Shown here one piece after another: positions 15,279 through 32,226 of a stretch of 55,006 bases of DNA. The stretch comes from Candidatus Gottesmanbacteria bacterium (lineage in GTDB: Bacteria; Patescibacteriota; Microgenomatia; UBA10105; UBA927). Below the pieces are notes generated by a model. It ran no database searches. It was not told the DNA's origin and saw nothing but the letters and a program-made list of their open reading frames with translations. Position numbers and translations under genes: made by a program. Positions within the stretch are counted from its first letter, which is position 1. Each line of letters starts with the position of its first letter. The DNA lies in assembly GCA_023245355.1 (NCBI GenBank), contig JAHFKN010000003.1, positions 1 to 55,006 of the forward strand, in the 5' to 3' direction.

Positions 15279-16361
15279 ATGAGAATTCTCATATTAGGGT
15301 CTGTCGCGCTTCCCGTGCCGCCGCCGATGCAGGGAGGGACGGAACGGATCGCATATTGGCAGGCGCGCGAGCTGGCAAAACGGGGGCACACGGTGACGCT
15401 TATTGCAGCAAAAGGTTCAAAGGCGGATCCCTCATATGCGCTGGTAGAAATCGGAGGCGGGGATACGGTTGCCGGTTCTTCCAATCATCTGCCGGAATCC
15501 GGTTCGTTTACCGAGGGGAGCCGGAATTTGCGGAAAGAGTTAATCTACATGACGCAGGTTGCCCAATGGATGCTGGATCATGGGAACGCATTCGACATGA
15601 TTCTCAATAATATGCGCGGCGGAGAATCCGTCTTGCTTCCGATTGCTGCACTTCTGAAGCTGCCGTTTGTCACTGTCATGCATTTACCGATATTTGACGG
15701 TCTTGCAGAGCAGTTCCGTTTCTACCGGACACCGGTGATTACTATCAGCAATGCCCAGCGGGCCGGATTTGACGGGATAACGTATGTCGGAACGGTATAT
15801 AACGCGGCGGATTTGGACGAATTGCCGTATCAGGAAAAACCCGGTGATTACCTGCTGATGATGGGGAGTATCGCTCCGCACAAAAATCAAAAAGACGGGA
15901 TATCGGTCGCCAAATCACTTGGGAAAAAAATTATTCTGGCCGGCAAAATCGGAAACCCCGCCTATTGGGAATCCGAAATAGTACCGCTTGTTGACGGGAA
16001 AAACGTCATACATACGGGTGAAATGGGTATCGCGGAAAAAGCAGCACTTCTGGGGGGCGCTGAAGCACTCCTGTTTCCTGTGGTATGGCCGGAGCCGTTC
16101 GGGCTCGTCATGATAGAAGCGCTTGCATGCGGTACGCCGGTAGTAGCATATGGGAACGGTGCGGTGCCTGAGGTCATCACACAGGGGAAGACCGGCTTTG
16201 TGGTTGACCAGTCGCAGGGCGTCGGGGGACTGGCGGTTGCCACGAAGCGTATCGGGGAGATCAGGCGCGCGGATTGCCGGGCAGAGGTAGAGAAGCGGTT
16301 TACGATCGCCCGGATGATTGATAGTCTGGAGCAAGCCCTGACTGCCGTCGTGCATTCATGA
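15279..16361 (+). CDS. GT4 glycosyltransferase
   Basis: VPPPMQGGTE, ISNAQR, WPEPFGLVMIEALACGTPVV, GKTGF. Confidence 0.95.
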   Translation: MRILILGSVALPVPPPMQGGTERIAYWQARELAKRGHTVTLIAAKGSKADPSYALVEIGGGDTVAGSSNHLPESGSFTEGSRNLRKELIYMTQVAQWMLDHGNAFDMILNNMRGGESVLLPIAALLKLPFVTVMHLPIFDGLAEQFRFYRTPVITISNAQRAGFDGITYVGTVYNAADLDELPYQEKPGDYLLMMGSIAPHKNQKDGISVAKSLGKKIILAGKIGNPAYWESEIVPLVDGKNVIHTGEMGIAEKAALLGGAEALLFPVVWPEPFGLVMIEALACGTPVVAYGNGAVPEVITQGKTGFVVDQSQGVGGLAVATKRIGEIRRADCRAEVEKRFTIARMIDSLEQALTAVVHS

Positions 16362-17213
16362 CCGGTCGAATCCCCGTAATGCAGTTCCCATCGAGCGCAG
16401 AATATATCCGGATTTTTCCCGGACAGTTGCCCTGTTGTAGCAATCATTGGTATGGATGTTCATGAGAATCAGCGGCCGGTCTGAGGCTTGAGTAAGTTCT
16501 GCTGCCCGTTTAGGGAGCCGAAGCATGGCTTCATTGAATGCAATCAGTTGCTGATAACTCATTTTTGAGCCGCGTGCGGATGATACGTCCGGTCTGGACT
16601 GCATGACAATGCCGATGTCTATATGGCGGATAAAGAGCTGTACTATCGCTATAACCTCAGAGAGTCGGGCAGGCTTTCCCGTGTGAAATTCCATCATATC
16701 GGCGAATGTGATTGCATGTAATAGATGCTGTTCATAAAACCGTAGGGTACTGCTCTGTTCCATTTCTCCTCCGTATGCGAGTTCAGACGCATGCGAATCG
16801 ATTCTTGAAGCTGCCCGCAGCAACCGGTATATATTGAGGTCTTCCCGTCTGTTGAGAGCAGGTAAATCAATCCGTCTGGGCTCGTTATAGACCACATGGG
16901 AAATATGCAGGTTCTTTAGTTGTCTGTCTGTCTCGCGGAGTATCGTGGACTTGAGTGATTTGGGAGGGCCGGGTATATCAGCAGTAGCCCAGGGGCGCAA
17001 TGCAGCTAAACGGCGTAATCTTCCTGCGGAATATGGGTATATTTCTCCCTGGTGGATGATAGTGATATGGTCGGTAGATTCACCGTCATGGAGTTTTGGG
17101 AGCCGGGCAAATACGCTGTCCCAATTTTCCGCCGGTCTCGGGAGCGGATACGGACGTGTACGTTTGAAGTCGGAAGTAACGCTTCTATACAATAATTTGA
17201 ACGTTTCCAGCAT
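16356..17213 (-). CDS. Hypothetical protein
   Basis: ~285-aa ORF with no competing gene; no motif recognised; start uncertain (up to 17264). Confidence 0.6.
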   Translation of the reverse strand: MLETFKLLYRSVTSDFKRTRPYPLPRPAENWDSVFARLPKLHDGESTDHITIIHQGEIYPYSAGRLRRLAALRPWATADIPGPPKSLKSTILRETDRQLKNLHISHVVYNEPRRIDLPALNRREDLNIYRLLRAASRIDSHASELAYGGEMEQSSTLRFYEQHLLHAITFADMMEFHTGKPARLSEVIAIVQLFIRHIDIGIVMQSRPDVSSARGSKMSYQQLIAFNEAMLRLPKRAAELTQASDRPLILMNIHTNDCYNRATVREKSGYILRSMGTALRGFDRS

Positions 17214-17349
17214 GGAGAATAGTTGCGGACAGAATATTGTCCAATATCCTATCACATATGTCACGTGATAGACAGATTAGGCCGGAAGGACGGCACATTA
17301 CACTCGTATCACATTGTTGTTCTGTAGTGTGGTACCATCAGGATTCTTT

Positions 17350-17583
17350 ATGGAACGGAAAGAACAACGGCGGCTTCATTTGCTTACCGGTCTTATGCGG
17401 GATGCTTCCGAATTTGAAGAAGAAGCAATAAAGATTGAAGTGTTTTTGGGCGGCAGATGGAAACGCCGCGTTATGGTACTCCCGAAGTGGCAAATAACTA
17501 TCATGCAGCAGCGTGGCGTGTATCATATGACGGATGATGACAAAGAGGAAATACAAGTGCGGTTAGCACGGAAGCCAAGGTGA
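17350..17583 (+). CDS. Small hypothetical protein
   Basis: ORF starting MERKEQRR. Confidence 0.45.
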   Translation: MERKEQRRLHLLTGLMRDASEFEEEAIKIEVFLGGRWKRRVMVLPKWQITIMQQRGVYHMTDDDKEEIQVRLARKPR

Positions 17584-17596
17584 GTTTACCTTGTTG

Positions 17597-17884
17597 TTAT
17601 AATCCCCACGGCGACCGATCTCCAGGAAGCGGCATTGCTCCAAGGGGGCCCTTAATGAGAAAAGAATCGGAATGTGTGCTGCGTCGCTGTCGTGGAAATT
17701 GGTTTTTGAAAATTCTCATTGCCTCACGGGCTGCGCGTCCCGATGGAAATGTAAGTTGAAGGGTTTCGTCTTTTTTAATCCAGTCCTCAAATGGCTGGAG
17801 ATCTTCAGGGAGTTCATGAGTGATAGTAAGAAATCCAACGTGGCGCTCATTTTTTAGTGAAATTTGCATGGTCGTTTGTGCCAT
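17597..17884 (-). CDS. Small hypothetical protein
   Basis: ORF starting MAQTTMQ with TATAAT upstream. Confidence 0.5.
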   Translation of the reverse strand: MAQTTMQISLKNERHVGFLTITHELPEDLQPFEDWIKKDETLQLTFPSGRAAREAMRIFKNQFPRQRRSTHSDSFLIKGPLGAMPLPGDRSPWGL

Positions 17885-17982
17885 AATAATCGCCTTTCTA
17901 TGCTTTATATTATATACCCATTTGGCAATAATTTGCTTCATATATGCTCACGTGCAGTATACGTACGTGTTATTATGAATAT

Positions 17983-19023
17983 ATGAAAATTGCTGTCCTT
18001 GCCCCGCCGTATTTACCGGTGCCACCGCCCCTCTACGGCGGAACAGAAAAAATAGTATCCCTCCTTACCGAAGGATTGGTTGCATCAGGCCACGATGTGA
18101 CGCTGTTTGCCAGCGGAGACAGTAAAACGGGCGCAACGCTTTCCTCGATATATCCTGCCGCATTGGGAAACAGCGGACTGACCAAAAGCGATACCAGCAA
18201 ACCATTGGCCCACTATCATGCATGTTATGCCCGGGCGGGCGAATTTGACATCATACACAGTCATGGGCAGTATTTGAGCTTGCCTGAAGCCGACGGTTTG
18301 AAAACCCCGGTTGTATTTACCTGGCACGGATCGTTTTATGAAGGGGAAACGACACCGGAAAAACGCGAAACGCTCAGAACCTACCGGCATCTTAACTACA
18401 TTTCCATATCCGATAATCAGCGCGGCGGGTTGCCGGAACTTCATTATGCGGCAACGGTATACAACGCACTCGATATAGCCGCCTATACATTTGTGGCAAC
18501 CCCCAGAGACTACCTTCTGTGGGTGGGTCGTGTAAGCCCCAAAAAAGGCGCGTTAGATGCGATTCTCGCCGCAAAACGGCTGGGTATCAGGCTTGAGATG
18601 GCTGCAGCGATAGACCCTATTGACCGCCCGTTCTTTGAGGAGAAGATTAAGCCGCTTATCGACGGAAAACAGATTATCTATCATGGTGAAGTAGGTCACG
18701 CCTCCCTTATCGAGTTATACGGAGGAGCAATCGCGACATTGTATCCTATTTCCTGGCATGAACCGTTTGGTTTGGTTATGGCAGAAAGTATGTCCTGTGG
18801 TACTCCGGTTGTTGCCTACAACATCGGTTCAATACCGGAGATAGTAAAAGATAGATTGACCGGCTTTGTTATAGATCAGTCACGAGGCGTAGATGGTCTT
18901 GTTGATGCGATCAAACGTATTGGTTCGATAGAACGCAAGGCATGCAGAACATACGCGGAAAAACGATTTCATAAGGACCGGATGGTAAAAGATTACGAAG
19001 CGGTGTATCGGAAATTTATATGA
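17983..19023 (+). CDS. GT4 glycosyltransferase
   Basis: VPPPLYGGTE, GHDVTLFASGDS, ISDNQR, WHEPFGLVMAESMSCGTPVV. Confidence 0.95.
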   Translation: MKIAVLAPPYLPVPPPLYGGTEKIVSLLTEGLVASGHDVTLFASGDSKTGATLSSIYPAALGNSGLTKSDTSKPLAHYHACYARAGEFDIIHSHGQYLSLPEADGLKTPVVFTWHGSFYEGETTPEKRETLRTYRHLNYISISDNQRGGLPELHYAATVYNALDIAAYTFVATPRDYLLWVGRVSPKKGALDAILAAKRLGIRLEMAAAIDPIDRPFFEEKIKPLIDGKQIIYHGEVGHASLIELYGGAIATLYPISWHEPFGLVMAESMSCGTPVVAYNIGSIPEIVKDRLTGFVIDQSRGVDGLVDAIKRIGSIERKACRTYAEKRFHKDRMVKDYEAVYRKFI

Positions 19024-20144
19024 ATATAGGATTGTATATTTCACCTGCTCATGCGGTTCCGCCGAAAGAAAACAGTATCCTGGCTCCGTGGATCCTTGTG
19101 CACCAGTTGGCAGAAGGGTTGGTGGCTGACGGGCATGACGTCACCCTGTTTGCCGCAAAGGGGAGTAAGACTAAAGCAAAGCTTGTTTCCGGCGGTATTG
19201 ATCCTGCGGTTGAAAAATTGCCGGAGTACGGCGATAAAGATGATTACCGTGCATATGTCGTGGCTCAGGAGCTGGCGCTGATGCGTGAAGTGATAGGGTG
19301 TGCGAAAGCCGGCAAACTGGATATCGTGCATATACACCAACCGGTGGAACGGTTGTACCCGGCGCTTCTGGCTATGCCGGCACATATCCCGGTCGTCATT
19401 ACGTTTCATGACCCTATTTCTCCTGCGCGGTTTGCCGCGTTGGAAAAGCTTATGGAGTTAGGAAATATTCATTTTGTGTCGTTATCCAAATCCCAACAAC
19501 ACGGCGTACCGTTTCCGTTTGCGGCAGTGGTGCCCAATGGCGTCGATACGAAGCAATTTATACCTGACAGGGCATTACCGCTTCATAAGCGGCCGTTACT
19601 TATGACCGGCAGGATTGTGCAACAAAAAGGGTTTGGTGATGCTATAGAAGCCGCCAAGCGGTCTGCCATGCGGCTTTTGATCATAGGCCAGGAATATCCG
19701 CATCAGAAAATAGCCCATGCGTATTTTGAGACAGAGGTGAAGCCGTATATAGACGGTAAACACGTGTTGTGGGAGTCAGTCGTAAAACACGAACATCTCG
19801 TAGGTCATTATCAAACTGCGGCAGCGTTACTGTTTCCCATCCAATGGGAAGAGCCGTTCGGGCTCGTCATGATAGAAGCGATGAGCTGCGGGACACCCGT
19901 TATAGCCTACAACCGCGGGTCAGTGCCGGAGATCGTCGTTGACGGGAAGACCGGTTTTATCGTGGATCCGGAAAAAGGGGTGGACGGATTGGCAGATGCG
20001 ATCAAACATATCGGAGATATTGACCGGAAGGTATGCAGAACGTATGTCGAGAAACACTTTTCGCTTGAAATAATGGTGAAAGGGTACGAAGCGGTATATA
20101 AAAAAATCCTCCATTCTTCCGGATCCGGAATGTCTTCAAAATAG
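19020..20144 (+). CDS. GT4 glycosyltransferase
   Basis: ATGA overlap with the previous gene; GHDVTLFA, WEEPFGLVMIEAMSCGTPVI, DGKTGF. Confidence 0.95.
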   Translation: MNIGLYISPAHAVPPKENSILAPWILVHQLAEGLVADGHDVTLFAAKGSKTKAKLVSGGIDPAVEKLPEYGDKDDYRAYVVAQELALMREVIGCAKAGKLDIVHIHQPVERLYPALLAMPAHIPVVITFHDPISPARFAALEKLMELGNIHFVSLSKSQQHGVPFPFAAVVPNGVDTKQFIPDRALPLHKRPLLMTGRIVQQKGFGDAIEAAKRSAMRLLIIGQEYPHQKIAHAYFETEVKPYIDGKHVLWESVVKHEHLVGHYQTAAALLFPIQWEEPFGLVMIEAMSCGTPVIAYNRGSVPEIVVDGKTGFIVDPEKGVDGLADAIKHIGDIDRKVCRTYVEKHFSLEIMVKGYEAVYKKILHSSGSGMSSK

Positions 20145-20183
20145 ATTACACACTCCCGGTTGCCTCCGTGCTATGATGATTTT

Positions 20184-21740
20184 ATGCCGGTATTATTAAA
20201 GAAGCATGGCTTCCATACGGCGGATTCCGCCAAAGAAGGAGCGCGCAGCGGATCAAAACACGCGATGCGTGTGTTATTTGTTACCAGTGAAATTGCGACA
20301 CTGTATAAGCGTGGAGGACTTGCCGATGTGAGTTACGCATTGCCTGTCGCACTGTCCCAATTGGGGGTGAATATATCCGTTGCCATGCCGTATTATGAGA
20401 GCGTCACAACCAAGGGTGTTACCTGCGTAGGACAGCTCGCTCTTGATTATGACCGACGGCGGGAACTCGTTTTTGTCTTCCGTGCGCTGCTTCCGCATTC
20501 GCATGTACGTGCGTATCTGTTCCGCCATCCGTTACTCAATAATTATGACGATCTCCATATCGCGGACCGGTTTGCATTTTTTTCCAAAGCCGTCGCACAG
20601 TTGTCGCTGTATTCAGAGGAAATGCTGGGAGGGCCGTACGATATTATCCACTGCAATGACTGGCATACGGCGCTTATCCCGCTTCTGATCGGCGAACAAA
20701 GTAAGGTAGGGTACCGGGAGCGGCCACGACCGCTATCGGCTGCGCCGAAGGCGCTGGCGGGCGGGGAAACTATCCAATCGAAGCGGGTAAAAACTATACT
20801 TACCGTACATAATTTGCTGTATCAGGGTGAGACAGGTTCATCGATCACACTCAAACTCGGATTTCCGAAACCGTTATTCCATCCGTTTATGACACCGCTT
20901 GGGCGGGCCGTACGGTTGCTCACCGAGGGATTTGAGTATGCAGATAAGGTCACAACGGTTTCTCCGACCTATGCCAAAGAGATTGCCGCAGGGAAGCACG
21001 GAAAACGCGTCGTAGAAGTATTCAGCCGCAGAAAAGACCGCATGATCGGTATATTAAACGGTTTGGACAGCAAACTGTGGGATCCCAGAAATGACCCTTC
21101 GCTGCCTGTCCATTACGATGCTTCGACGGTAGTTTCTGCTAAAAGAGTGATTAAAGCGCAGTTGCGGAAAGCGCTCAGGCTCCCGGAATCGGAAGCGCCG
21201 CTTTTCGGATTTGTCGGGAGGCTTGAAAGCAGGCAAAAGGGCCTGGATCTTATCGCGCGCGTGATAAAAAAGCTTGCGGGCGAAGCGTATCAACTGGTGC
21301 TTCTGGGTACCGGACAGAAGAAGCTGGTGGCTCTCTTTGAGCGCCTGGCGGCAGAGCATAAAAACGTCGTGTTTGTCCACACATTTGATGAACGGTTAGC
21401 TCGCAGGATATATGCCGGGAGTGATGTTATGCTTGTTCCTTCGAAATTTGAGCCGTGCGGTTTGACTCAGCTCATTGCCATGCGGTACGGGACATTACCG
21501 TTGGTACGGAAAACAGGCGGCCTTGCCGATACGGTGCACGACGGGAAAACCGGTTTTGTGTTTACGCCGTATACGAGTACCGCCCTTGCCGACAAGATGA
21601 AAGAGGCGATTGCCCTCTATCATGAGAAACCTGCCCGCTTTGAAGCGATGACGGCGCATGTGATGGGATTGGATTTTTCCTGGCAGCATCAGGTAAAAGA
21701 ATACCTCGCGTTATATCAAAGCCTGCTCAAATCTTCCTGA
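20184..21740 (+). CDS. glgA: Glycogen synthase (GT5)
   Basis: KRGGLADV, DIIHCNDWHT, TVHNLLYQG, TVSPTYAKEI, GILNGLD, RLESRQKGLD, PSKFEPCGLTQLIAMRYGT, TGGLADTV. Confidence 0.95.
   Translation: MPVLLKKHGFHTADSAKEGARSGSKHAMRVLFVTSEIATLYKRGGLADVSYALPVALSQLGVNISVAMPYYESVTTKGVTCVGQLALDYDRRRELVFVFRALLPHSHVRAYLFRHPLLNNYDDLHIADRFAFFSKAVAQLSLYSEEMLGGPYDIIHCNDWHTALIPLLIGEQSKVGYRERPRPLSAAPKALAGGETIQSKRVKTILTVHNLLYQGETGSSITLKLGFPKPLFHPFMTPLGRAVRLLTEGFEYADKVTTVSPTYAKEIAAGKHGKRVVEVFSRRKDRMIGILNGLDSKLWDPRNDPSLPVHYDASTVVSAKRVIKAQLRKALRLPESEAPLFGFVGRLESRQKGLDLIARVIKKLAGEAYQLVLLGTGQKKLVALFERLAAEHKNVVFVHTFDERLARRIYAGSDVMLVPSKFEPCGLTQLIAMRYGTLPLVRKTGGLADTVHDGKTGFVFTPYTSTALADKMKEAIALYHEKPARFEAMTAHVMGLDFSWQHQVKEYLALYQSLLKSS
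20730..20760. repeat. REP/RPE-like palindromic element inside glgA
   Basis: CCGCTA...GCGCC-GAA-GGCGC-TGGCGG hairpin, encoding an extra loop (PLSAAPKALAG) between the HCNDWH and TVHN motifs. Confidence 0.5.
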
Positions 21741-21819
21741 TTCTTACTACTTACTCCTGTGCGTTTACAAGTGTTTACAAGTAACTAATACTCCGATGCA
21801 GCCCGTTATGGCCGGGAAT

Positions 21820-22779
21820 TCAGGCAAGAGTATAGTAAACACTCCGTCCTTTGCCGCTTGAGGTAAGAAATCCATAGGAAACCAGCCGTGTCAGATCCCG
21901 GCTCGCAGTGATTTGCGAGATACGGAACCGTTTTTGCACTTCGCGGTTCGTGATTTTTGCACCGGGCATATCCAGCAGCATGCGTATCTGATTCTGGCGG
22001 GTATTGAGGACGCTGACGGAACCATTTCTGCGCTTTTTTTCCGTATCGGGTCCTTCGAAATTTCCAAGAAGCGTTTCATATGCACTGACAACGCTGTTTG
22101 TGTAGTATTCGAGCCAGACGGTCATCTGACCTAATTGCCGTATGCTGTGCAGCGCATGATCGTATGCGTTGGTGTCCCGGGTGAGTTCGGATTCCAGGCT
22201 CAGCATGCCGCGGCAATCATATCCGTGTCTGGTAAGAATGAGGCTGCTTATGAGAAATGTCATCCGCCCGTCTGAGTATTTGTGGAGGGGGGTGTGTGCT
22301 ATATATGCGTGCGTCAGACCAGCGGCAATGACAGGGTGATCCGGCTGTGTTTCTGTGTAGGCGATGAGGTGCTTAATATCGGCAGCACTTTCCCTGACAC
22401 ATCGGGAAATATGCCGGGACAGCATCGGAACAGCTATATGCATAAGTACTTCTATGGCTGATACGGTAAGAGGACGCGCTTGTCCCGTCCACTCGTCGCG
22501 GATGTACATAAGCGCCTGGCGATACAGAAGAGCCTGGTGCTCAATAGGGTGGGGACGTTTGGGGTTCCGGGTAAACAGTCCGGTGAGTTCCTGCATGGTC
22601 ATAGGAAGATTGGCCTGATGTAACGCCGCGAGGATACGCAGACATGTTGCTTCGTGCCGGAGTTCAATTTCTTTCCGGGGCAAGAGGGGTATGCTGAGGG
22701 CACGATTCCTGTATTGGTCAATACGTTTTGTATTGTGCTGGAGTAACGGTGAATAGGTGTATGCAATGGTTGCAGTCAT
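21820..22779 (-). CDS. Fic-like protein with degenerate Fic motif and C-terminal winged HTH
   Basis: HPVIAAGLTHAYIAHTPLHKYSDGRMT occupies the position of HPFxDGNGRxxR; C-terminal ITNREVQKRFRISQITASRDLTRLV...GKGRSVYY is a wHTH. Confidence 0.8.
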   Translation of the reverse strand: MTATIAYTYSPLLQHNTKRIDQYRNRALSIPLLPRKEIELRHEATCLRILAALHQANLPMTMQELTGLFTRNPKRPHPIEHQALLYRQALMYIRDEWTGQARPLTVSAIEVLMHIAVPMLSRHISRCVRESAADIKHLIAYTETQPDHPVIAAGLTHAYIAHTPLHKYSDGRMTFLISSLILTRHGYDCRGMLSLESELTRDTNAYDHALHSIRQLGQMTVWLEYYTNSVVSAYETLLGNFEGPDTEKKRRNGSVSVLNTRQNQIRMLLDMPGAKITNREVQKRFRISQITASRDLTRLVSYGFLTSSGKGRSVYYTLA

Positions 22780-22916
22780 GCCGGTATGTGAAAATATCCC
22801 GGTGATCGTACCATGGAGCTGAGAAAAAATCAAAACGCTTTATAGGCTGTTCATACGGGAAAAGTGCGTTTATGTGATAAGAGAACGATAAGATTATGAT
22901 CCGGTTCGTATGGTAC

Positions 22917-22946
22917 TTGACAACATGTGAAATTCTGACGTACAGT
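22917..22946 (+). promoter_or_regulatory. Sigma70-like promoter of the HTH-dCache/collagen operon
   Basis: TTGACA-18nt-TACAGT. Confidence 0.6.
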
Positions 22947-23062
22947 GGATAGAGAGAGATTCCCTATTAGTAATAACTGTGAAACTCATTGGGAAGCACT
23001 TGTAAAAACCTGCGTATTTTACGCGTCATAACGGGCTAAAGGGTTTGGGAGCCTGCCTAGCT

Positions 23063-24994
23063 ATGCCCAAAACATACACCGTTAAGGAAATTGCCGATAT
23101 ATTAGGGTTCAGCACGAACAGTATCTACACGTTCCTCAAAGAGAAGCGGATTAAAGGCGTACGCATCGGCAAAGGCAGATTCAGAATCCCTGAAGAAGAA
23201 TTATCGCGCATCCTGCATCTTTCTAAAAAACCGGTACGGGATGATACTCTACTTCACGTGTCCGATATTCTCTCTCCGTCTTTGATGTCTGCAGCAGGCG
23301 ATGCCGCGGTGTTTGTTCAGCGTGATCCCGGTTCTTCCCGTCATCAGAATGATACCGTTCTTATACCGAATCTGTTTGATTGGTTCGTCGGGTTAGCAGC
23401 GATTATTACCGGGGTCGCGCTGTTTATATTTAATGCGTCCATAAGCTCACCGAGTCTTTCAAGATTCACTGCATTGTTTCCGTTTATCAGGGTGGTGCTG
23501 ATTGCGGCAGGGTTGGGTGTTATCGTAAGCGGTTCATTGGTCCGTAACAGGATATGGCACGGAGTATTTTTACTCTCGTTATCACTGATGGGGTTTGCAA
23601 ACGTATTCGGGCTCGCACGCACGGGAGATATAGAAGGTGCGCTTATTTACGCAGGTATGGCGCTTGTGACCGGAATAGCCGTCGTCGTGCCGCTCGGGGG
23701 AGTCGTTTCTGTTCTCATCTACGCGACGCTTTTGGCTGTGTTTATCCCGGTAACTATGGTGTTTTTCCCATACGAAGAGCATTTACAGGCAGCTTCCGTA
23801 TTTTTTGGTATGCCGGTATTGACTATGGGCATGATTGCTTCCCTTGCTGCAGCCATCGTGATTTCAGGATTCTGGATAGGATACGCAAAGCACCGGGCAG
23901 CATTTATTGTATCAACTGCTTTTGCCGCAGCGTGTGATCTGGCATTAGCCATATGGTATGCCAATATGCAGTACTGGAGCAGGTCGTTTTTTATGGTCGT
24001 TGTCGGTTTTTTTACCGGATTGTTACCGTACTGGTGGCTGTTGCAGCAGCACGCCCTCCGGCGGCACAAAATTGTATTACACGGGATATTTGTTGCTATC
24101 GGCGGGATACTGCTGGTTACCATCCTTGTTATAAGTTTGCTGCAGCAAAATGTATGGAACTCCAAACAAATAGAATTTTTGAATAAAATTAAAATTGCCC
24201 AAAATGAACTTCAAAATGCCACGATGTCAGTGCAAAGTTCCATAACGGTGGCTTCGATGAACGCTGAGTTTGTCGATACGGTGGTGAAACAGGATTTGCC
24301 CCGGCTGACGGCCAACGCAAAGATTATATATGAAAGCAATCCTGATATACGCCGCCTCGTTTTTTTGGATAAAGACGGCACGGGCGTAGCCCTTTATCCG
24401 TACGGGACATTTGATGAACCGAATTTCGCGTACCGTGATTATTTCCAGAAGCCAAAGGCGACCGGCAAGCCGTACGTGTCCGATGTGTTTAAATCTCTGG
24501 TGGATCACGCGGGAAGATATGTCGCCGTCGTGTCCGTTCCGCTTCACGATAAGAAAGGGAATTTTGTCGGTGTTATTGCTGCATCTTTGGCGCTCGACAG
24601 ATTAGGCATGCACCTGGCGCAAATTGCGGCAGACAAGCAGGGAGAGTATTTTGTCGTAGTTGATGCAAAAGGGAAAATTCTGACGCATCCGGACGAAAAA
24701 TTAGTCGGTACACAGATACCGGTAACCGATCTTCTTGTCAAAGGGATAAACGGGGAAATGGGCGTGCAGCAAAGTACGTTTATCGACGGCTCGTACGGCA
24801 TGGTTGCCTATGCGAATGTCCCGGCGCTCCGTTGGGGGATTAGTCTGAGGGCTGTATCAAGTAATGTTTTTGAGCTTACAGCCATGACGATAACGGCGAT
24901 ATTCGGCGTAGTAACCGTTATCATGCTTTCCGCAATTGCGGTTATTGGCGTTGTATGTGGCCGGACCAGATTCGAAAAAGAAAGCGGACCATAA
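23063..24994 (+). CDS. Membrane-integral sensor/regulator: HTH_17 (excisionase-like) + ~10 TM + dCache + terminal TM
   Basis: N-terminal [43 protein letters not shown]; long hydrophobic block; dCache motifs YRDYFQK...PYVSDVF...VSVP...GVIAA, YFVVVD.KG.ILTHPD, WGI. Confidence 0.85.
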
Positions 24995-27900
24995 TGACGC
25001 CAACACAAAAACAAAAACTGATTCGGCTGAAATCCGCGCACGGCGGATTTCTGGCTGAAATGGGTTTTCCCCGACCTGGCGGGCCGGTTTCGTTTTGGGG
25101 GACACAGTTGATCCTGCCGGTGTTATTTTTTATCGTTTTTGGAGGAACCGCATGGGGGATAGTAACCGTCATACAGCAGAAGAATCTTCCGCAACCACAA
25201 GTCCGTGTAGCAGAGTCGGGCGCCGGTCCTACAATTCATGCGTTGACTCCGGCTGTCGTACGGGAAAGTAAATGGGCACGGCCGTTTGTGGTATTGGTTC
25301 AGCGGGCGGACGGATCGTTTGCCTACGCGTATGTAGAAAATGCGCTGGTCGCAAATGGTGCCTATGTGGGAGACATCACTGTACGGTATACCAACGGAGA
25401 GCACGGAATAGTCCGCTCCGAAAACGGCATATTCAGATTTTTTCTTACCAAACGGGGGCTTTCCGAGTCTGTCCGGATCATAGAGCCTGTTATCAGCGGG
25501 ATAACATTGCCTGATCATAGTATATTGTTGGCTAAATTTACCGACGGACGGATCATCGGTGAACAATTGACCGGACAGTTTACCGCGGTGACGGTATCTG
25601 AAAATCTGCAGATATCCGGCAACCTTTCGGCTGACGGTGAATTTATTTCGCTTACGCTGGAGCCGACGCTAAAATCTCTGGATACCGGAATGGCCATGAT
25701 TCAGCGGGAGGTACTGAAAATGGCGTTAGCAGGGACTGGTGATTCCAGCAGTGTCCTCGGTATTACGACAGATACGGCTGAAAATGTGAATATACCGATT
25801 TTGTCTTCAAATATAAGCTCAAACATGATAATCCAGCGGTTTGATGGAGAGGGAGTGATACGTATTGTTACAAGAAGTAACAATATAGATCAATCTATTA
25901 CAAACACGCAAAATCTGAATCTATCATCTGATTCAAATACGAATAATCAGTCTTCTCAGCTTGCGCTTAATCAGGGATTTTATCCCTCATCGGGCGGATC
26001 TGCAGGTGTTGCGGGGGCAACAGGCGCGACGGGAGCGCAAGGTATAAAAGGTGATTCCGGTGCAAACGGTTCTCAGGGTTCCAACGGAACAAATGGTCCG
26101 ACGGGGGCGAGCGGTGTAGGAGAATTAGGGCCGATCGGTCCGACAGGGGCTACCGGTACAGGGGGAAGCGGAAGCGGCGATCCCGGCGCAGATGGACCTA
26201 CCGGTTCAACAGGGGCTACCGGAATCACTGGTGTTACCGGAGTGTCAGGTCCGACAGGTGCTACAGGATCTACCGGCAACGCGGGTGCAGCCGGTCCGAC
26301 TGGAAATACAGGATCTACCGGAGGTGCAGGACCAACAGGATCGACAGGAGCAACGGGAACGGCGGGAGTCACCGGTCCGACGGGTTCTACCGGATCAACC
26401 GGTGTAGGAGGTGCAGCAGGACCTACAGGAGCAAGCGGAGCGACAGGTGTTGCAGGGGCCACCGGTCCGACGGGTTCTACCGGGGCAACTGGTATAGCAG
26501 GAGTCTCCGGTCCGACCGGTTCTACAGGGTCAACCGGTGCAATAGGCCCGACAGGCTCCACGGGATTAACAGGAATCAGCGGAGAAACCGGTCCGACGGG
26601 AGCAAGCGGTTCCACCGGTACACAGGGCGCAGTCGGTTTTTCAGGACCTACCGGTTCGACAGGTGCGACTGGTTCTGCGGGTGCCAATGGTCCGACGGGA
26701 GCGAGCGGTTCCACCGGTTCTCAAGGTGCTGCCGGACCGACAGGCTCTACAGGATCAACCGGAACTGCGGGTGCCAATGGTCCGACGGGAGCGAGCGGTT
26801 CCACCGGTTCTCAAGGTGTTGCCGGTCCTACCGGGAGTACGGGAGCAACAGGATCTGCAGGAGTAAGCGGACCTACAGGAAGTACAGGTTCTACAGGAGT
26901 CGCGGGAACAGCCGGTCCGACAGGATCGACAGGAACAACGGGTACGCAAGGTGCATCCGGTCCCACGGGAAGCACCGGATCGACCGGTAATCAAGGCAGT
27001 GTTGGTGTAAGTGGTCCCACGGGAAGCACCGGAGCTACTGGTGGTGTTGGCGTATCCGGGCCAACTGGTTCTACGGGGTCGACAGGAACAGTTGGTTCAA
27101 GCGGTCCGACCGGTTCTACAGGAACTACCGGACAAGGAGGGCCGACCGGAGCTACAGGCCCGACCGGTTCACAAGGCGGAGCAGCCGGAGCTTCAGGTCC
27201 CACAGGAACTACAGGCGCAACCGGTTTACAAGGCGCAAGCGGTCCGACCGGAGCTACAGGCCCGACGGGTGAAATCGGTGTGAGTGGTCCGACAGGATCC
27301 ACCGGTGCAACGGGGAGCGCCGGCTCTTCAGGCCCGACCGGTTCTACCGGATCCACAGGATCTATCGGAGTATCAGGCCCGACTGGTGCAAGTGGCGCAA
27401 CAGGAGCTGCCGGTGCTTCTGGTCCGACGGGAGCAAGCGGTGCAACCGGAACTGCCGGAAGTGCAGGCCCGACTGGTAGCACAGGCGCCACTGGTAATAT
27501 AGGTAGCTCAGGTCCTACCGGCAGCACTGGCGCTACCGGATCTGCCGGTACATCCGGCCCAACAGGTTCGACAGGATCTACAGGTTCTGCAGGTTCATCC
27601 GGTCCGACGGGATCTACCGGGGCAACGGGAAGTGTCGGAAGTTCCGGTCCGACAGGTTCTACCGGCTCCACCGGAAATCAAGGAAGTGTCGGAAGTTCCG
27701 GTCCGACGGGATCGACAGGTGCAACAGGAACTGTTGGTGAAAGCGGGCCAACAGGAAGCACCGGATCAGCCGGCACTGTCGGGAGTTCCGGACCCACTGG
27801 TTCAACAGGTGCTACCGGAGGGATTGGTGCTTCAGGTCCTACGGGAGCAACCGGATCAACAGGAACACAGGGTTCGGCAGGAATTGACGGCGCAGATGGC

Positions 27901-30900
27901 CCAACAGGTTCTACGGGAGCAACCGGAGGTATTGGCGCGAGTGGTCCCACAGGTTCAACAGGATCTACTGGCGCACAAGGATCTTTGGGTCCAACAGGTG
28001 CTACTGGTACAACGGGATCTCAAGGTTTACAAGGTTCTTCAGGCCCGACCGGATCTACGGGAGCAACCGGTGTTGCGGGAGTAACCGGGCCTACCGGGAG
28101 TACGGGTGCAACAGGAACACAAGGCTCTTCAGGCCCGACCGGTTCTACTGGTTCAACGGGAAGCATTGGTTTATCCGGTCCGACGGGAGCGAGCGGCTCC
28201 ACCGGTTCCGCAGGTCAGGCGGGAAGTTCCGGTCCTACCGGAAGTACGGGTCCGACCGGGGCTAGCGGAGTAAGCGGGCCAACCGGAAGTACAGGTGTCA
28301 CTGGTTCCGCCGGTGCTGCTGGTCCGACAGGTGCAAGTGGCGCCACGGGGACTGCCGGAGGTGCAGGCGTATCTGGTCCTACAGGTTCAACAGGTGCCAC
28401 AGGAAATGCCGGTGCAGCTGGTCCAACCGGAGCAAGCGGAGCCACAGGATCTGTTGGAGTATCAGGTCCCACGGGTTCAACAGGTGCCACTGGTTCTGCA
28501 GGTGCGAACGGTCCGACAGGTGCAAGCGGATCAACAGGAGCTCAGGGAAGTGCAGGCCCTACCGGTTCAACAGGAGCTACAGGAACTGCGGGAGCCGCCG
28601 GCCCGACAGGGTCTACCGGATCCACAGGAAATGCAGGAACAGCAGGCGTCAGTGGCCCAACGGGATCGACAGGTGCAACAGGAACTGTTGGTGAAAGCGG
28701 GCCAACAGGAAGCACCGGATCAGCCGGCACTGTCGGGAGTTCCGGACCTACGGGTTCAACCGGGTCCACCGGTACACAAGGTGTAAGTGGTCCGACCGGT
28801 TCAACAGGATCTACCGGAGGCATTGGTGTATCAGGTCCAACAGGTGCTACTGGTACAACGGGATCTCAGGGTTCACAAGGTTCTTCAGGCCCGACCGGAT
28901 CTACGGGATCTACAGGAAGCGCAGGAGCTGCCGGTGCTTCTGGTCCGACGGGAGCAAGCGGAGCGACGGGAACTGCCGGAAGTGCAGGTCCGACTGGTAG
29001 CACAGGTGCCACTGGTTCTGCAGGTGTTGCTGGCCCAACTGGCCCAACTGGTTCAACCGGTTCTACTGGTTCTGCTGGTCCGACGGGAGCAAGCGGAGCG
29101 ACGGGAACTGCCGGAAGCGCAGGTGTATCTGGTCCTACAGGCTCAACCGGCGCCACCGGTTTACAAGGTACAAGTGGTCCGACCGGTTCTACCGGATCCA
29201 CAGGATCTATCGGAGTATCAGGTCCGACAGGTGCAAGCGGTGCAACAGGAGCTGCCGGTGCTTCTGGTCCGACGGGAGCAAGCGGAGCCACAGGAACTGC
29301 CGGAAGTGCAGGTGTATCTGGTCCTACAGGCTCAACCGGTGCTACAGGAACTGCAGGAGCCGCCGGTCCAACGGGAGCAAGCGGAGCGACGGGAACTGCC
29401 GGAACCGCAGGTGTATCTGGTCCTACCGGTTCAACAGGAGCCACAGGAACTGCGGGAGCCGCCGGCCCGACAGGGTCTACCGGATCCACAGGAACTGCCG
29501 GAACCGCAGGTGTCAGTGGCCCAACGGGATCGACAGGTTCTACGGGATCCGCAGGTGCTGCAGGTCCGACAGGATCGACAGGAACAACAGGATCAAATGG
29601 TCCGACAGGGGCTACCGGAAGTACGGGATCCGTCGGAGCGATACCGGATAATTCTCTTGATGTGAGTAAATGGTCAGCAACCAGCGCGCTCAACATCAGT
29701 AAAGCAATTACATTCGGCGGGGCCGCATTAGGATTGACGTTCACCAATGACGGTTCAGGCAATTTTCTTGTCAATACATCGAGTACCGGAGATTTCCTTG
29801 TTCAGGACAATGGCGTCAATGCAATACAGGTTGACGGGAACGGCGGTGCGATCAATATCGGAGCAGCCGGTTTGGTAACGATAGATGCGGGTAGTGCCGG
29901 AGTGAACGTCGGCACGAGCGCCAATGCACAGACAGTTACTGTCGGTAACGTGACCGGAGCAACTGCCGTAAATATCAATACCGGTACGGGTGGCATAAAC
30001 TTCGGTGATAACGCAAACACGAAAACGATCGATATCGGAGGCGTAACCAACTCCGGAACGGATACGATAAATATCGCGACCCAGGGAACTGCCGCAGATG
30101 TTGTTACCATCGGAAACTCCAATGCATCAACGACCGTTGCCATCACCGGAGGAAGTGCGTGGTCCATAACAGCTGCAGGCGTACTGACGGTTGCATCCTG
30201 TACGGGCTGCGGCGGAGGGGGAGCGCCGGATACTGCAAGTTTTGTCGATACGTCACCCGCCGCAATGGCAGATAACGACACGACAGAACTGTTTAATGAT
30301 GCGACGAAACCAAACATTACGACGGATTCTACGTCAGCCACGGTATTGGTTTCCGTTGTCGTGACTGACGCATCAGCCACGAGTACCGACGATGAATTCG
30401 ATGCAATACGGATCGTGCGGGAAGTAAACGGTACTGACCCGTCGTGTTCCGCAGATCCCCAGGTGGGCTCTATCATGCAAGGAGGATTTGTCACCGCTGC
30501 GACTCACCCATGGAGCGCATCAGGAACATTTCTTGACAGTCCTGCTACCGCGGGTGTCATAAAATATACGGTCTGTACCAGTGCGCAGTCCGTAGGCACC
30601 GTTGATAATACTCCCACCAGTGTTGAGGTAACGTTGGTTGAACTGGGAGCCGACTTGGCAGAAAATTATTACACATCTGACGATTCAATCGGCCCGGGAG
30701 ATGTTGTCGTTATAGATCCGTCATTGCCTGCCGGAGTGAAGAAAGCCAGTACCCCGTATGATGCAAAAGCATTAGGCGTCGTTTCGACCGTTCCGGGAAT
30801 TACCTTAGATGATGCAATCGGCTTAGGATACGGTAGACCTGTTCCTGTGGCTCTGGCAGGAAGAATTCCGGTGAAAGTTTCAACAGAAAACGGCAGAGTC

Positions 30901-32226
30901 AAAGCAGGGGATTTGCTCAGCCCGTCGGCCATACCGGGAGTGGCAATGAAAGCGACTAAAGCAGGGCAGGTTATCGGTCAGGCGCTGCAGGATTTCAGCT
31001 ATCCGGACGGTGAAGTAGGCTTGGTCGTCGCGTTTGTGAAAACGGATTATTCCTTAGGTAGCAACCTCACCGACTTATTACCGGGACTTACTGCATCGCA
31101 GGAAGTGCCGCTTGGGAAACTCGCGCTGGCATACTTTATGTCCCAAAAGGAACAACTCCAAACCTCGGTTACTCTGTCGGAAATTGTGACTGACAGGGTT
31201 TCAGCAGGACTGGAAGTCATCTCTCCGAAAATCGTCGTTGACGAACTGATTGCGCGTTCCATCCAGCCGGTTGAAAAAGACCTGACAGTGACACTCGGTG
31301 CCGATGGCACGTTTATTCTGACCGGTGGTCGGACCGATGCGACGTCTTCGGCACAGCCGGTTATTACGTTTGACAGCTTCGGTAATGCGTTTTTTGCCGG
31401 AACCGTCACTGCGGATACACTATCCGCCAGACAGATTGTCGGATTAGACTTTGCCACACAGGCAAGTGTATCTGCGGAAGCATCCTCATCTGCAAATATA
31501 TTGTCTTTCATGTCTTTTATACAGGATTCGATCACATTTATTACCCGCGTCGTATTCCGGTCTCCGGCAGAGTTTTTGGCAGATGTCGTGTTCCGCGGAC
31601 GTGTGGTGTTTGATAGAGATACGGCCGGCCGGGCGGTAATTCCGGCCAGCACGTCTTCGGTGACCGTCGTGTTCGATCGTCCGTTTGCCGAGCCGCCGGT
31701 CGTCACGATTTCATTAACGCTTAAGGAAGCAACTGACAGCGCATTCTTAGCCGATGCAGTCAGGGCTGCCGTTGCAAGCGTTACCCGGGAGCAGTTTACT
31801 ATTATATTGGATACATCCGTACCCCGGGATCTTACATACAGCTGGGTAGCACTTGCCGTCACCAACGCCAGGAGTGTTGTCGGAAAAAGGCTGGGAGAAG
31901 GAGGAACTGTAGCAGGGAGTAATATAGAGAATATACCGTTGACCCCCACGGGTATGCCTGCAACTCCGGCACCGACATTTATCCCGACGATGACGCCGAC
32001 GCCTACCGTGATAGCAAGCAGTTCAGGTCAGACGGTTACGGTGCGCGCAAATGAGCCGGGATATGCGCGCATGTTTGAGAATCCTTCGGAAGGTGCATCA
32101 GAATCCGGCCGCATTCCGTCCGGTATGGTTGTATCGTATACAGAAATGCAGGACGGGTGGTATCATGTCATATACGAAGCACTTACAGGATGGTTGAGCG
32201 GAGCATCTGTTTCTGTGAATCCATAA
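24994..32226 (+). CDS. Giant membrane-anchored collagen-like fibre protein (~2410 aa) with Peptidase_G2-like, lectin-like and SH3b domains
   Basis: TAATG stop/start overlap with the upstream gene; N-terminal TM; Gly-X-Y tract; ADLAE...GDVV...LGVVST...[12 protein letters not shown]...GDLL; [13 protein letters not shown]...YSWVA; C-terminal GWYHV...GWLSG. Confidence 0.9.
25996..29643 (+). repeat. Collagen Gly-X-Y repeat tract (~405 triplets; [15 protein letters not shown])
   Basis: 3648 nt of near-continuous GGN-NNN-NNN periodicity with only a few register breaks. Confidence 0.97.

What the first reader, a model, noticed from the sequence alone, without database searches (positions are those of the whole stretch)
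23063..24994. Unusual one-component architecture: excisionase-type HTH + ~10 TM + dCache with no C-terminal output
Seen: the protein ends about 10 aa after the TM that follows dCache (...[11 protein letters not shown]), with no HAMP, kinase, GGDEF or MCP domain. The only plausible output is the N-terminal HTH_17. Established: dCache usually signals to C-terminal cytoplasmic modules, and ToxR/CadC-type membrane regulators use an OmpR wHTH with one TM. Inference: a new class of membrane-tethered transcription factor, perhaps activated by clustering or by proteolytic release of the HTH.
Basis: partly seen in the sequence, partly recalled or inferred. Interest (0 to 1): 0.75.

Follow-up and report, generated by a model that had tools for sequence, protein, structure and literature searches.

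The report
Membrane-tethered sensor-regulator beside giant fibre
An uncultivated ultra-small groundwater bacterium encodes a membrane protein with a DNA-binding head inside the cell and a chemical sensor outside; its gene is always joined to that of a giant collagen-like surface fibre and is flanked by rows of 10-bp DNA repeats, so it probably switches fibre production in response to outside signals.

Summary
ORF 23063-24994 encodes 643 aa: HTH_17 (5-50), a disordered linker, nine TM helices, an extracellular dCache_1, a tenth TM and a 3-12 aa tail. It is not truncated: all 120 listed homologues and the best 150 of an exhaustive search are 693-705 aa or shorter, and none extends into a kinase, cyclase or MCP module. 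Charge bias puts the HTH inside and dCache outside.

New here: in 41 of 41 related loci that reach past the gene, a giant collagen-like fibre gene follows directly. The stop overlaps a start codon in 35 of 41. Head-to-tail arrays of an ACTTGTAAAAAC-like word, spaced 10-12 bp, lie in the leader (ACTTGTA in 38 of 44 regions, 43-fold over expectation), and in 25 of 42 loci a second array lies before the fibre gene. The arrays track this gene, not the neighbouring wHTH gene.

Best reading: a transmembrane transcription regulator that binds these repeats and controls the sensor-fibre operon. That class is known, so "new class" is overstated. This is a new variant, restricted to Gottesman-/Roizmanbacteria-type Patescibacteria. 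DNA binding, ligand and sign of regulation are untested.

The scan met this family before in five other genomes, with the same reading.

The parts
23063..24994 (+). Sensor-regulator gene, 643 aa (an in-frame TTG at 23045 is an alternative start)
   Evidence: ORF list, translation. 120 of 120 listed homologues of 562-705 aa carry PF12728 + PF02743.
23075..23212 (+). HTH_17 (excisionase/Xis-type) domain, residues 5-50, predicted cytoplasmic
   Evidence: Pfam 36.4 bits against cut-off 27; TIGR01764. Closest full-length solved relative is the mycobacteriophage protein Gp37, 4j2n, E 9.5e-4. This region is 82% identical on average across 27 relatives that are 28-62% identical overall.
23225..23353 (+). 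Disordered, poorly conserved linker, residues 55-97
   Evidence: pLDDT below 50 over 55-97; 14% mean identity; length 21-57 aa across the family.
23354..24160 (+). Conserved 9-helix membrane block, residues 98-366, no family assignment
   Evidence: Hydropathy. AF2 of this block alone: pLDDT 91.7, pTM 0.89. No Pfam family covers it. Invariant F105, W107, G117, G150 and W305 in 37 sequences (as residues 8, 10, 20, 53 and 208 of the 98-366 segment).
24161..24880 (+). Extracytoplasmic dCache_1 domain, residues ~367-606
   Evidence: Pfam 77.8 bits; VIA Z 23.5 to 4wy9; Foldseek E 3.5e-10 to 6ior.
24881..24991 (+). Tenth TM helix (607-640) and short cytoplasmic tail
   Evidence: AF2 helix 607-640; hydropathy peak 613-631; the tail carries 3 K/R.
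22917..22946 (+). Promoter-like site TTGACA-18-TACAGT
   Evidence: Best site of the region, 10 of 12 matches. CTTGACA is present in 28 of 44 upstream regions.
22966..23012 (+). Head-to-tail repeat array in the leader: one strong copy (22995-23012) and three degenerate copies at 10-12 bp steps
   Evidence: The copy at 22995 scores 19.7 bits, the best site in the whole 1.275-Mb genome. Sequence read. Family-wide statistics.
24992..24996 (+). Stop/start overlap TAATG between the sensor gene and the fibre gene
   Evidence: Sequence. Such overlaps occur in 35 of 41 loci.
25029..25051 (+). Hairpin GAAATCCGC-GCACG-GCGGATTTC, 35 nt after the stop
   Evidence: A GC-rich hairpin at the same place in 31 of 41 loci; with a T-run in 23 of 41 against 29 of 410 control windows. 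In this window no T-run follows.
24994..32226 (+). Giant fibre gene (about 2410 aa): short N-tail, one TM, conserved ~230-aa membrane-proximal domain, collagen-like GXY repeats, H-type lectin and SH3_3 at the C-terminus
   Evidence: ORF and translation; Pfam H_lectin and SH3_3; N-terminal alignment A2. A homologue follows the sensor gene in 41 of 43 loci.
21820..22833 (-). Divergent 337-aa gene: degenerate Fic-like domain plus C-terminal ArsR-type wHTH
   Evidence: NF033788 E 4.6e-7 at residues 292-337; SoFic E 0.017; 4rgl Fic E 0.64. Present in 33 of 43 loci.
22876..22893 (+). Direct pair of GATAAGA, 11 bp apart, upstream of the -35
   Evidence: Sequence. Present in 29 of 33 loci that have the 337-aa gene and 0 of 10 that lack it.

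Best explanation
The protein is a transmembrane transcription regulator, that is, a membrane-bound one-component system. It is dedicated to its own operon, which also encodes a giant collagen-like, lectin-tipped surface fibre.

Shown: the extracellular dCache domain is held between TM9 and TM10, and the Xis-type HTH_17 sits in the cytoplasm on a flexible 21-57 aa tether.

Inferred: several copies of the protein place their HTH domains head to tail on the row of 10-12-bp-spaced ACTTGTAAAAAC-like repeats. That row lies just downstream of the promoter, and in many relatives a second row lies in front of the fibre gene. A signal at dCache, relayed through the 9-TM block, changes self-association or occupancy and so changes expression of sensor and fibre together. 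Because the leader array lies between the promoter and the start codon, I favour auto-repression that the signal relieves. The sign of regulation is a guess.
For: (1) The architecture is complete and conserved. All 120 listed homologues have both domains at 562-705 aa. In the exhaustive search 170 clusters score E<=1e-30 and the best 150 are all 693 aa or shorter.
(2) Topology: K+R is three times denser in predicted inside loops, 12.25 per 75 residues against 3.14 per 57.5, over 28 sequences.
(3) The HTH is far more conserved than the rest: 82% identity against 14% (linker), 36% (TM block) and 43% (dCache). That fits a fixed target.
(4) An unbiased 7-mer count finds ACTTGTA in 38 of 44 upstream regions, 54 occurrences against 1.25 expected, none on the reverse strand.
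(5) A PWM scan gives 156 forward and 22 reverse sites. 42 of 44 regions have two or more, with recurring 10-12-10-10 bp spacing.
(6) The window's site is the best in its 1.275-Mb genome.
(7) Over 597 kb of loci, sites pile up in the leader (137), on the opposite strand at the sensor/fibre junction (67), and near -1300 (32). Arrays in both orientations and in helical phase argue for double-stranded DNA, not RNA, as the target.
(8) The arrays are as strong in the 10 loci that lack the neighbouring 337-aa wHTH gene as in the 33 that have it (3.9 against 3.5 sites). The other repeat, GATAAGA, follows that gene: 29 of 33 against 0 of 10.
(9) Xis/BldC-type HTH domains bind variable numbers of direct repeats head to tail as cooperative multimers (PMC5859096, passages read). 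The closest full-length solved relative of this HTH is a phage protein, Gp37, 4j2n.
(10) The fibre gene follows in 41 of 43 loci; the other two are cut by the contig end. Stop/start overlap occurs in 35 of 41.
Against: No binding or expression data exist, and no RNA run holding the locus was listed.

In this window the array is weak: one strong copy and three degenerate ones, with no second array.

The repeats could be bound by another protein. This genome has two small stand-alone HTH_17 ORFs.

In many relatives the second array lies inside translated sequence, which is unusual for an operator.

A disordered, unconserved linker cannot pass on a conformational signal, so the coupling between dCache and HTH is unexplained.

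The 9-TM block is more elaborate and more conserved than a tether needs, which hints at a further function.

The family is narrow. Full-length matches were found in 3 of 401 sampled genomes of the phylum and not in a same-genus genome.
Confidence: 0.55

Rival explanations
1. DNA tether and fibre-assembly factor rather than a switch. The HTH arrays hold the operon's DNA at the membrane. The 2410-aa, N-terminally anchored fibre is then made and inserted where the 9-TM/dCache block sits, and that block binds or helps to mount the fibre's conserved membrane-proximal domain. On this reading dCache reads the fibre, not a small molecule.
For: The fibre gene is adjacent in 41 of 41 loci that reach that far, and translational coupling is kept in 35 of 41, even through short bridging ORFs.

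The fibre has a conserved ~230-aa domain right after its TM.

The complex prediction (sensor 98-643 against fibre 1-300) gave weak support. Median score 0.55 (runs 0.59, 0.01, 0.55), best of 3 controls 0.00. The mark was reached by 116 of 157 solved complexes and 2 of 215 mismatched pairs, but at 0.60 or under by only 18 of those 157 and by both mismatches that passed. The runs agree in at least 0% of contacts and the partner's pLDDT is at least 62.

The same genome has a fibre-like protein with two HTH_17 domains fused to its own cytoplasmic end. Three arrays around one gene look more architectural than a simple operator.

Membrane capture of target genes by such regulators is described for a Vibrio system (PMC9977878, abstract seen in the listing).
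Against: The complex score is of the kind the tool calls more often wrong than right, and one run of three scored 0.01.

dCache domains are typically small-molecule sensors (the top structural matches are ligand-bound chemoreceptor domains). The arginine that binds a ligand's carboxyl group in amino-acid-sensing dCache domains is kept.

The C11 fusion gene has no such array upstream.
Confidence: 0.2
2. Regulated proteolysis. The protein is an inactive membrane-held precursor. A signal at dCache triggers cleavage in or near the linker, and the freed ~60-100 aa HTH acts as a soluble BldC-like regulator on the repeats.
For: The linker is long, disordered and unconserved, as cleavable tethers often are. 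Small stand-alone HTH_17 proteins are functional regulators (PMC5859096).
Against: No protease gene is conserved in the neighbourhood. No conserved cleavage motif appears in the linker. Known transmembrane regulators of this class act from the membrane (PMC10269533 abstract).
Confidence: 0.1
3. The repeats are not this protein's target. They are bound by another factor or act in the RNA leader. The HTH_17 then serves protein-protein contacts, or the protein's main job lies in the 9-TM block, for example transport or lipid-linked chemistry related to the neighbouring glycosyltransferases.
For: The 9-TM block has conserved polar residues in predicted outer loops (R.GD..GA, P.D.H, YWSR.FF) and matches no known family. 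GT4 and GlgA-like genes are syntenic in about 24 of 43 loci. The leader array is on the transcribed strand downstream of the promoter.
Against: Arrays occur on both strands relative to transcription and in 10-12 bp phase, which an RNA element would not explain. They do not depend on the other local HTH gene. The HTH is the most conserved part of the protein. Rfam finds nothing in the region.
Confidence: 0.12

Closest known systems
Transmembrane transcription regulators (TTRs; ToxR, TcpP, CadC and the wider set surveyed in PMC10269533)
   Same: One polypeptide joins a cytoplasmic DNA-binding domain, membrane span(s) and an extracytoplasmic sensor, with no phosphorelay. A flexible cytoplasmic linker is present. 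Target genes are often local and encode envelope proteins.
   Different: ToxR/CadC use an OmpR-type wHTH and one TM. Here the head is an Xis-type HTH_17 and there are ten TM helices, including a conserved 9-TM block of unknown family. The candidate operator is a head-to-tail array, not a ToxR-box. The survey covers RefSeq genomes. Its table is sorted by TM count, and among the 60 of 151 HTH_17 rows I saw, which include all 9 with two or more TMs, none carries dCache_1 and the maximum is 7 TMs.
dCache_1 + HTH_18 (AraC-type) TTRs listed in the supplement of PMC10269533
   Same: An extracytoplasmic dCache_1 in a membrane-bound transcription factor. dCache_1 occurs in 936 of 50,302 TTRs.
   Different: In the rows shown, the order is sensor, TM, then a C-terminal cytoplasmic HTH_18, the usual N-to-C signalling direction. 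Here the DNA-binding domain is N-terminal, nine helices away from the sensor, and nothing follows the last TM.
BldC of Streptomyces and phage excisionases (Xis), small HTH_17/MerR-like proteins
   Same: The same domain family (Pfam HTH_17, TIGR01764; 4j2n is the closest full-length solved sequence). BldC binds variable numbers of direct repeats head to tail as cooperative multimers (PMC5859096), which fits the 2-6-copy arrays here.
   Different: Those proteins are small and soluble. Here the domain is tethered to a polytopic sensor. The repeat word differs: AATT....C per protomer for BldC, ACTTGTAAAAAC-like here.
ArnR/ArnR1 of Sulfolobus acidocaldarius (PMC6396743; title and start of abstract only)
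   Same: Membrane-bound one-component transcription factors that control genes for a cell-surface appendage.
   Different: Archaeal, with different domains, no Cache sensor and no giant fibre. I did not read that paper beyond the listing.

Membership tests
Transmembrane transcription regulator (membrane-bound one-component system) | A recognised DNA-binding domain in the same chain as at least one TM segment (the survey's own criterion, PMC10269533) | tested here: met
   HTH_17 36.4 bits against cut-off 27; ten TM helices.
Transmembrane transcription regulator (membrane-bound one-component system) | DNA-binding domain cytoplasmic, sensor extracytoplasmic | tested here: met
   By prediction only. 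Nine TMs lie between HTH and dCache. K+R is 12.25 per 75 residues in inside loops against 3.14 per 57.5 outside, over 28 sequences.
Transmembrane transcription regulator (membrane-bound one-component system) | Binds DNA and regulates transcription while in the membrane | not testable with these tools
   Only indirect evidence: conserved repeat arrays that co-occur with the gene.
ToxR/CadC-like receptors | OmpR-type winged HTH (Trans_reg_C) and a single TM | tested here: not met
   No Trans_reg_C among the 11 Pfam families at E<=1; ten TM helices.
dCache_1 (Pfam PF02743) | Sequence match over the curated cut-off and a double-PDC fold on a long N-terminal helix | tested here: met
   77.8 bits against cut-off 45; Z 23.5, rmsd 3.0, 240 aligned residues to 4wy9.
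dCache_1AA (amino-acid-sensing dCache) | AA_motif Y121, R126, W128, Y144, D173 in PctA numbering (PMC8915833, passages read) | tested here: not met
   In the phmmer alignment to PctC 5ltv, R458 aligns with the motif R. The motif W is Y460 (invariant in the family) and the motif D is S508 (nearly invariant). D173A and D173N abolish binding in PctA.
HTH_17 / excisionase-type DNA-binding domain (TIGR01764) | Sequence match over the curated cut-off | tested here: met
   33.2 bits against cut-off 28.8; Pfam 36.4 against 27. All 28 aligned members match.
BldC family (head-to-tail multimers on direct repeats) | Cooperative head-to-tail binding to direct repeats using the wHTH alone | not testable with these tools
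   Consistent with arrays of 2-6 same-strand repeats at 10-12 bp steps.
Classical MerR regulators | HTH followed by a coiled-coil dimerisation helix and an effector-binding domain | tested here: not met
   No MerR family among the Pfam hits at E<=1. A disordered linker and a TM helix follow the HTH.
Histidine kinase / MCP / GGDEF receptors with dCache | A cytoplasmic HAMP, HisKA/HATPase, MCPsignal or GGDEF module after the second TM | tested here: not met
   The protein ends 3-12 residues after TM10. None of the 120 listed homologues and none of the best 150 of the exhaustive search is longer than 705 aa.
Any solved membrane-protein fold for the 9-TM block | A structural match standing clear of background | tested here: inconclusive
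   Block folded alone (pLDDT 91.7). Foldseek best E 0.064. VIA best Z 9.4 over 110 residues, below the level of about 13 that the tool gives for helical bundles.

The most novel reading that the evidence does not exclude
The protein is a contact sensor built into the base of the attachment fibre. Its 9-TM/dCache part grips the fibre's conserved membrane-proximal domain. Engagement or loading of the fibre, for example on a host cell, changes how the sensor molecules cluster. Their tethered Xis-like heads then assemble on three repeat arrays around their own gene, which both sets transcription and pins the locus to the membrane where the 2410-aa fibre is threaded out. That would be a direct mechanical or occupancy link from a surface adhesin to DNA in a candidate-phyla bacterium, with no second messenger.
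Probability: 0.12. Interest if true: 0.85.

Novelty: new variant of a known kind. Interest (0 to 1): 0.62.

Why it matters
Candidate-phyla (Patescibacteria) bacteria have tiny genomes and few known regulators, and many are thought to live attached to other cells. How they control attachment structures is unknown.

This family offers a compact and testable case: one protein, one operon, one candidate operator. The predicted output is a giant lectin-tipped collagen-like fibre.

It also widens the known range of transmembrane regulators in three ways. The head is an Xis/BldC-type domain that should work as a multimer on direct repeats. The sensor lies C-terminal to the output. And there is a conserved nine-helix block of unknown family.

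If the repeats are confirmed as its operator, the system is a ready-made ligand-to-transcription module for study, and a handle on what these uncultivated cells sense.

Tried and rejected
Eleven hits whose match starts at residue 76 or later were checked. Seven carry HTH_17 behind a longer linker. Four begin inside or just after the HTH/linker region and look like N-terminally cut gene calls. No swapped DNA-binding domain was seen.

Fold of the 9-TM block: no clear match by Foldseek (best E 0.064) or VIA-wide (best Z 9.4 over 110 aa; MprF 9.1). The search with the full model tested only the dCache part. ESM Atlas on residues 98-365: best score 0.75, an unnamed cluster, below the usable level. 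A DUF6056 hit in 2 of 28 members was not followed up.

Wider regulon: other motif clusters in the window's genome lie inside coding regions and look like chance. In five related genomes the paired pattern gave 18 hits against 4 for the reversed control, about half of them at the operon. I claim no regulon.

The C11 HTH-fibre fusion gene has no array upstream.

RNA element: Rfam found 0 matches at E<=1 in 21700-25400. RNAalifold on a MAFFT alignment of 30 post-stop segments predicted 0 pairs, because variable loops misalign the stems. The hairpin claim rests on the per-locus counts only.

Expression: no RNA holder listed.

Amino-acid sensing by dCache: motif not met.

A GT-C-like glycosyltransferase reading of the TM block was considered. 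The first predicted outer loop is unconserved and lacks acidic residues, so I dropped it. This is a judgement from recall of that family's features, not a test.
Full report
OBSERVATION. The ORF is real: 23045..24994 on the + strand, 643 aa from the ATG at 23063. Pfam gives HTH_17 at residues 5-50 (36.4 bits, cut-off 27) and dCache_1 at 401-592 (77.8 bits, cut-off 45). None of the 11 families listed at E<=1 is a HAMP, kinase, GGDEF or MCP-signal domain. NCBIfam adds the excisionase-type model TIGR01764.

Hydropathy and a confident AF2 model (pLDDT 83.6, pTM 0.72) show nine TM helices between residues 104 and about 360. TM9 runs on into the first dCache helix (333-398), a tenth helix spans 607-640, and only a few residues follow. 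The dCache fold is confirmed against solved structures: Foldseek E 3.5e-10 to Mlp24, and VIA Z 23.5, rmsd 3.0 over 240 residues to Tlp1.

IS IT TRUNCATED? No. A word-indexed search found 151 relatives. All 120 listed are 562-705 aa and carry both PF12728 and PF02743. An exhaustive phmmer search of 1.84 billion representatives found 170 clusters at E<=1e-30, and the best 150 are all 693 aa or shorter.

Eleven of those hits match only from residue 76 or later. Seven of them still have HTH_17 behind a longer linker. Four start inside or just after the HTH/linker region and look like cut gene calls. So the architecture is fixed, and no relative continues into a kinase or cyclase.

TOPOLOGY. With nine helices between the HTH and dCache, the two lie on opposite sides of the membrane. 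Across 28 members, the loops predicted inside carry 12.25 K+R per 75 residues and those predicted outside 3.14 per 57.5. That is the positive-inside pattern expected for a cytoplasmic HTH and an external dCache.

CONSERVATION PROFILE. Identity to the window protein averages 82% in the HTH, 14% in the linker (21-57 aa long and disordered in the model), 36% in the TM block, 43% in dCache and 24% in TM10 plus tail. A near-invariant DNA-binding head on proteins that are otherwise about 30-60% identical points to a fixed target.

DISTRIBUTION. 43 related loci were fetched from one-genome-per-species contigs. The informative record titles are Candidatus Gottesmanbacteria, Roizmanbacteria or 'Patescibacteria group'. 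In an even sample of 401 genomes of the phylum, 6 matched at E<=1e-20. Three were full or near-full length matches (G000, G250, G133) and the other three matched only the dCache part. A same-genus genome had none. The window's genome has a single copy.

NEIGHBOURHOOD. [quoted passage not shown] The two exceptions, L037 and L041, end at the contig edge before the gene ends.

In the window the stop TAA (24992-24994) overlaps the ATG at 24994. A stop/start overlap is present in 35 of 41 loci. In 23 of those 35 the frame runs straight into the fibre protein. Of the other 12, one is cut by the contig end and 11 are bridging ORFs of 25-53 codons, 8 of which end in a second ATGA overlap with the fibre start.

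The fibre protein (about 2410 aa here) has a short N-tail, one TM, a conserved ~230-aa membrane-proximal domain, long collagen-like GXY repeats, and an H-type lectin and an SH3_3 domain near the C-terminus. A divergent 337-aa gene is present in 33 of 43 loci, a GlgA-like gene in 24, and GT4 glycosyltransferases in 24-25.

REPEAT ARRAYS. Reading the 140 nt before the start codons showed a recurring word. An unbiased 7-mer count over the 260 nt upstream of 44 genes gave ACTTGTA in 38 regions (54 occurrences, 1.25 expected, 43-fold) and none on the reverse strand. CTTGACA, a -35-like word, occurs in 28 regions.

A matrix built from these sites found 156 forward and 22 reverse sites. 42 of 44 regions have two or more, and spacings of 10-12-10-10 bp recur in L007, L011, L026, L030 and L032. 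The arrays start just after a TTGACA-N17/18-(C/T)A(T/C)AGT promoter-like site. In the window that site is the best in 21700-25400 (22917-22946, 10 of 12).

The window's own array is modest. One copy at 22995 scores 19.7 bits, the best site in the whole 1.275-Mb genome, and three degenerate copies lie at 10-12 bp steps.

Scanning all 597 kb of loci showed three hot spots. The leader on the + strand has 137 sites. The opposite strand at +1750..+2249, the sensor/fibre junction, has 67. The region -1500..-1251, beyond the divergent gene, has 20 on the - strand and 12 on the + strand.

25 of 42 loci have two or more reverse-strand sites near the stop. The window and its closest relatives (L001-L008, L011-L013) have none, because their two genes abut. 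The third array is present in 14 of 39 loci with enough DNA.

Same-word arrays in both orientations, in helical phase, partly inside translated sequence and in changing reading frames argue for recognition of double-stranded DNA and against a peptide or an RNA element. Rfam finds nothing there.

WHICH PROTEIN BINDS THEM? Two local HTH proteins are candidates. The 337-aa protein has a C-terminal ArsR-type wHTH (E 4.6e-7) and a weak, degenerate Fic-like domain. A second repeat, GATAAGA (window 22876 and 22887), is present in 29 of 33 loci that have this gene and in 0 of 10 that lack it. The Fisher p of 5e-7 overstates the case because related loci are not independent. The ACTTGTA arrays are equally strong in both groups, 3.5 against 3.9 sites.

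So the ACTTGTA arrays go with the HTH_17-dCache gene. Two of the ten 'lacking' loci (L028, L030) hold only 1653 and 588 nt of upstream DNA, so the gene could be cut off there.

Head-to-tail arrays of variable copy number are what BldC, a small MerR-like/Xis-like wHTH protein, binds as cooperative multimers (PMC5859096, passages read). The closest full-length solved relative of this HTH is the phage protein Gp37, 4j2n (E 9.5e-4). I recall 4j2n to be an excisionase, but the tool gave only the name Gp37.

MECHANISM. Shown: the architecture, its completeness, the predicted topology, the operon link to the fibre gene, and the repeat arrays with their co-occurrence.

Inferred: the tethered HTH domains of several molecules bind the arrays. 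dCache, through the 9-TM block, alters self-association or occupancy. Sensor and fibre are regulated together. Because the leader array lies between the promoter and the start codon, I favour auto-repression relieved by the signal.

The linker is disordered, so a change in oligomeric state is more plausible than a transmitted conformational change. The ligand is unknown. In the published amino-acid motif (PMC8915833), R is kept (R458), but the W is Y460 and the essential D is S508, so a canonical amino-acid sensor is unlikely.

THE 9-TM BLOCK. Folded alone it is very confident (pLDDT 91.7, pTM 0.89). It matches no Pfam family, and structure searches gave nothing above background. That is inconclusive, not proof of a new fold. 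Its conserved polar residues lie in predicted outer loops, next to where the membrane-proximal dCache module and the fibre's basal domain should be.

A complex prediction of sensor 98-643 with fibre 1-300 gave weak support only. The median score was 0.55 (runs 0.59, 0.01, 0.55) and the best of 3 controls 0.00. The mark was reached by 116 of 157 solved complexes and 2 of 215 mismatches, but at 0.60 or under by only 18 of those 157 and by both mismatches. Contact agreement was at least 0% and the partner's pLDDT at least 62. This keeps a fibre-base reading alive but does not establish it.

COMPARISON WITH WHAT IS KNOWN. The class is known. A survey of RefSeq genomes counted 50,302 transmembrane transcription regulators with over a hundred DNA-binding domain types and up to 22 TMs (PMC10269533, Results read). 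In its supplement HTH_17 occurs in 151 of them and dCache_1 in 936, and the rows shown were dCache_1,HTH_18.

Of the 151 HTH_17 rows I saw numbers 1-30 and 122-151. The table is sorted by TM count, so all 9 rows with two or more TMs were seen. None has dCache_1 and the maximum is 7 TMs. Rows 31-121 were not read.

Three full-text searches found no paper on this family or operon. Subscription journals are not covered. The public names are generic: 'excisionase family DNA binding protein' and 'helix-turn-helix domain-containing protein'.

The scan itself met the family in five other genomes, and those follow-ups gave the same reading. I looked this up after my own analysis.

VERDICT. Its candidate operator and its obligatory partnership with a giant surface fibre make it directly testable.

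Noticed in passing
L048 (G000:C11:842-3991); ORF on the - strand, C11:2-2707, cut by the contig end: Another protein of the same genome has two tandem N-terminal HTH_17 domains, a proline-rich linker, one TM and then collagen-like GXY repeats. Here the DNA-binding head is fused directly to a fibre-type protein. No ACTTGTA array lies upstream of it.
   Followed up: partly
window 21820-22833 (-) and 22876-22893: The divergent 337-aa protein has a degenerate Fic-like domain (the motif region reads HKYSDGRM) and an ArsR-type wHTH. A direct pair of GATAAGA, often with an inverted pair about 80 bp further upstream in relatives, co-occurs strictly with this gene (29 of 33 against 0 of 10 loci).
   Followed up: partly
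window 25029-25051; same place in 31 of 41 loci: A GC-rich hairpin lies 25-37 nt after the sensor's stop, with varied stem sequences. In many relatives a T-run follows (23 of 41 against 29 of 410 control windows), although the region is often translated. This may be an attenuator that ties fibre transcription to translation of the preceding ORF.
   Followed up: partly
L017-L022, L027, L029, L031, L033, L038 (sensor/fibre junction): Short bridging ORFs of 25-53 codons start in an ATGA overlap with the sensor's stop. In 8 of 11 they end in a second ATGA overlap with the fibre start. Their peptides are not conserved, but the embedded DNA repeats are.
   Followed up: partly
window 38666-38938 (-); also G000:C2:72525-72788 (+): Two small stand-alone HTH_17 ORFs (about 65-90 aa, BldC-like in size). 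They are alternative candidates for binding the repeat arrays.
   Followed up: no
window 26000-30000: The collagen-like repeat part of the fibre gene has G+C of about 0.60-0.62 against about 0.49 elsewhere in the window. It also opens long spurious ORFs in other frames and on the other strand.
   Followed up: no
window 15261-21740: A run of three GT4 glycosyltransferase genes and a GlgA/starch-synthase-like gene precedes the module and is syntenic in about 24 of 43 loci. This may reflect glycosylation of the fibre.
   Followed up: no
record titles of L001, L004, L008, L009, L013 and others: Nineteen of the 43 related records are titled 'uncultured Gammaproteobacteria' and one 'uncultured Pseudomonadales', although they carry this Patescibacteria-type operon. 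These titles look like placeholder labels.
   Followed up: no
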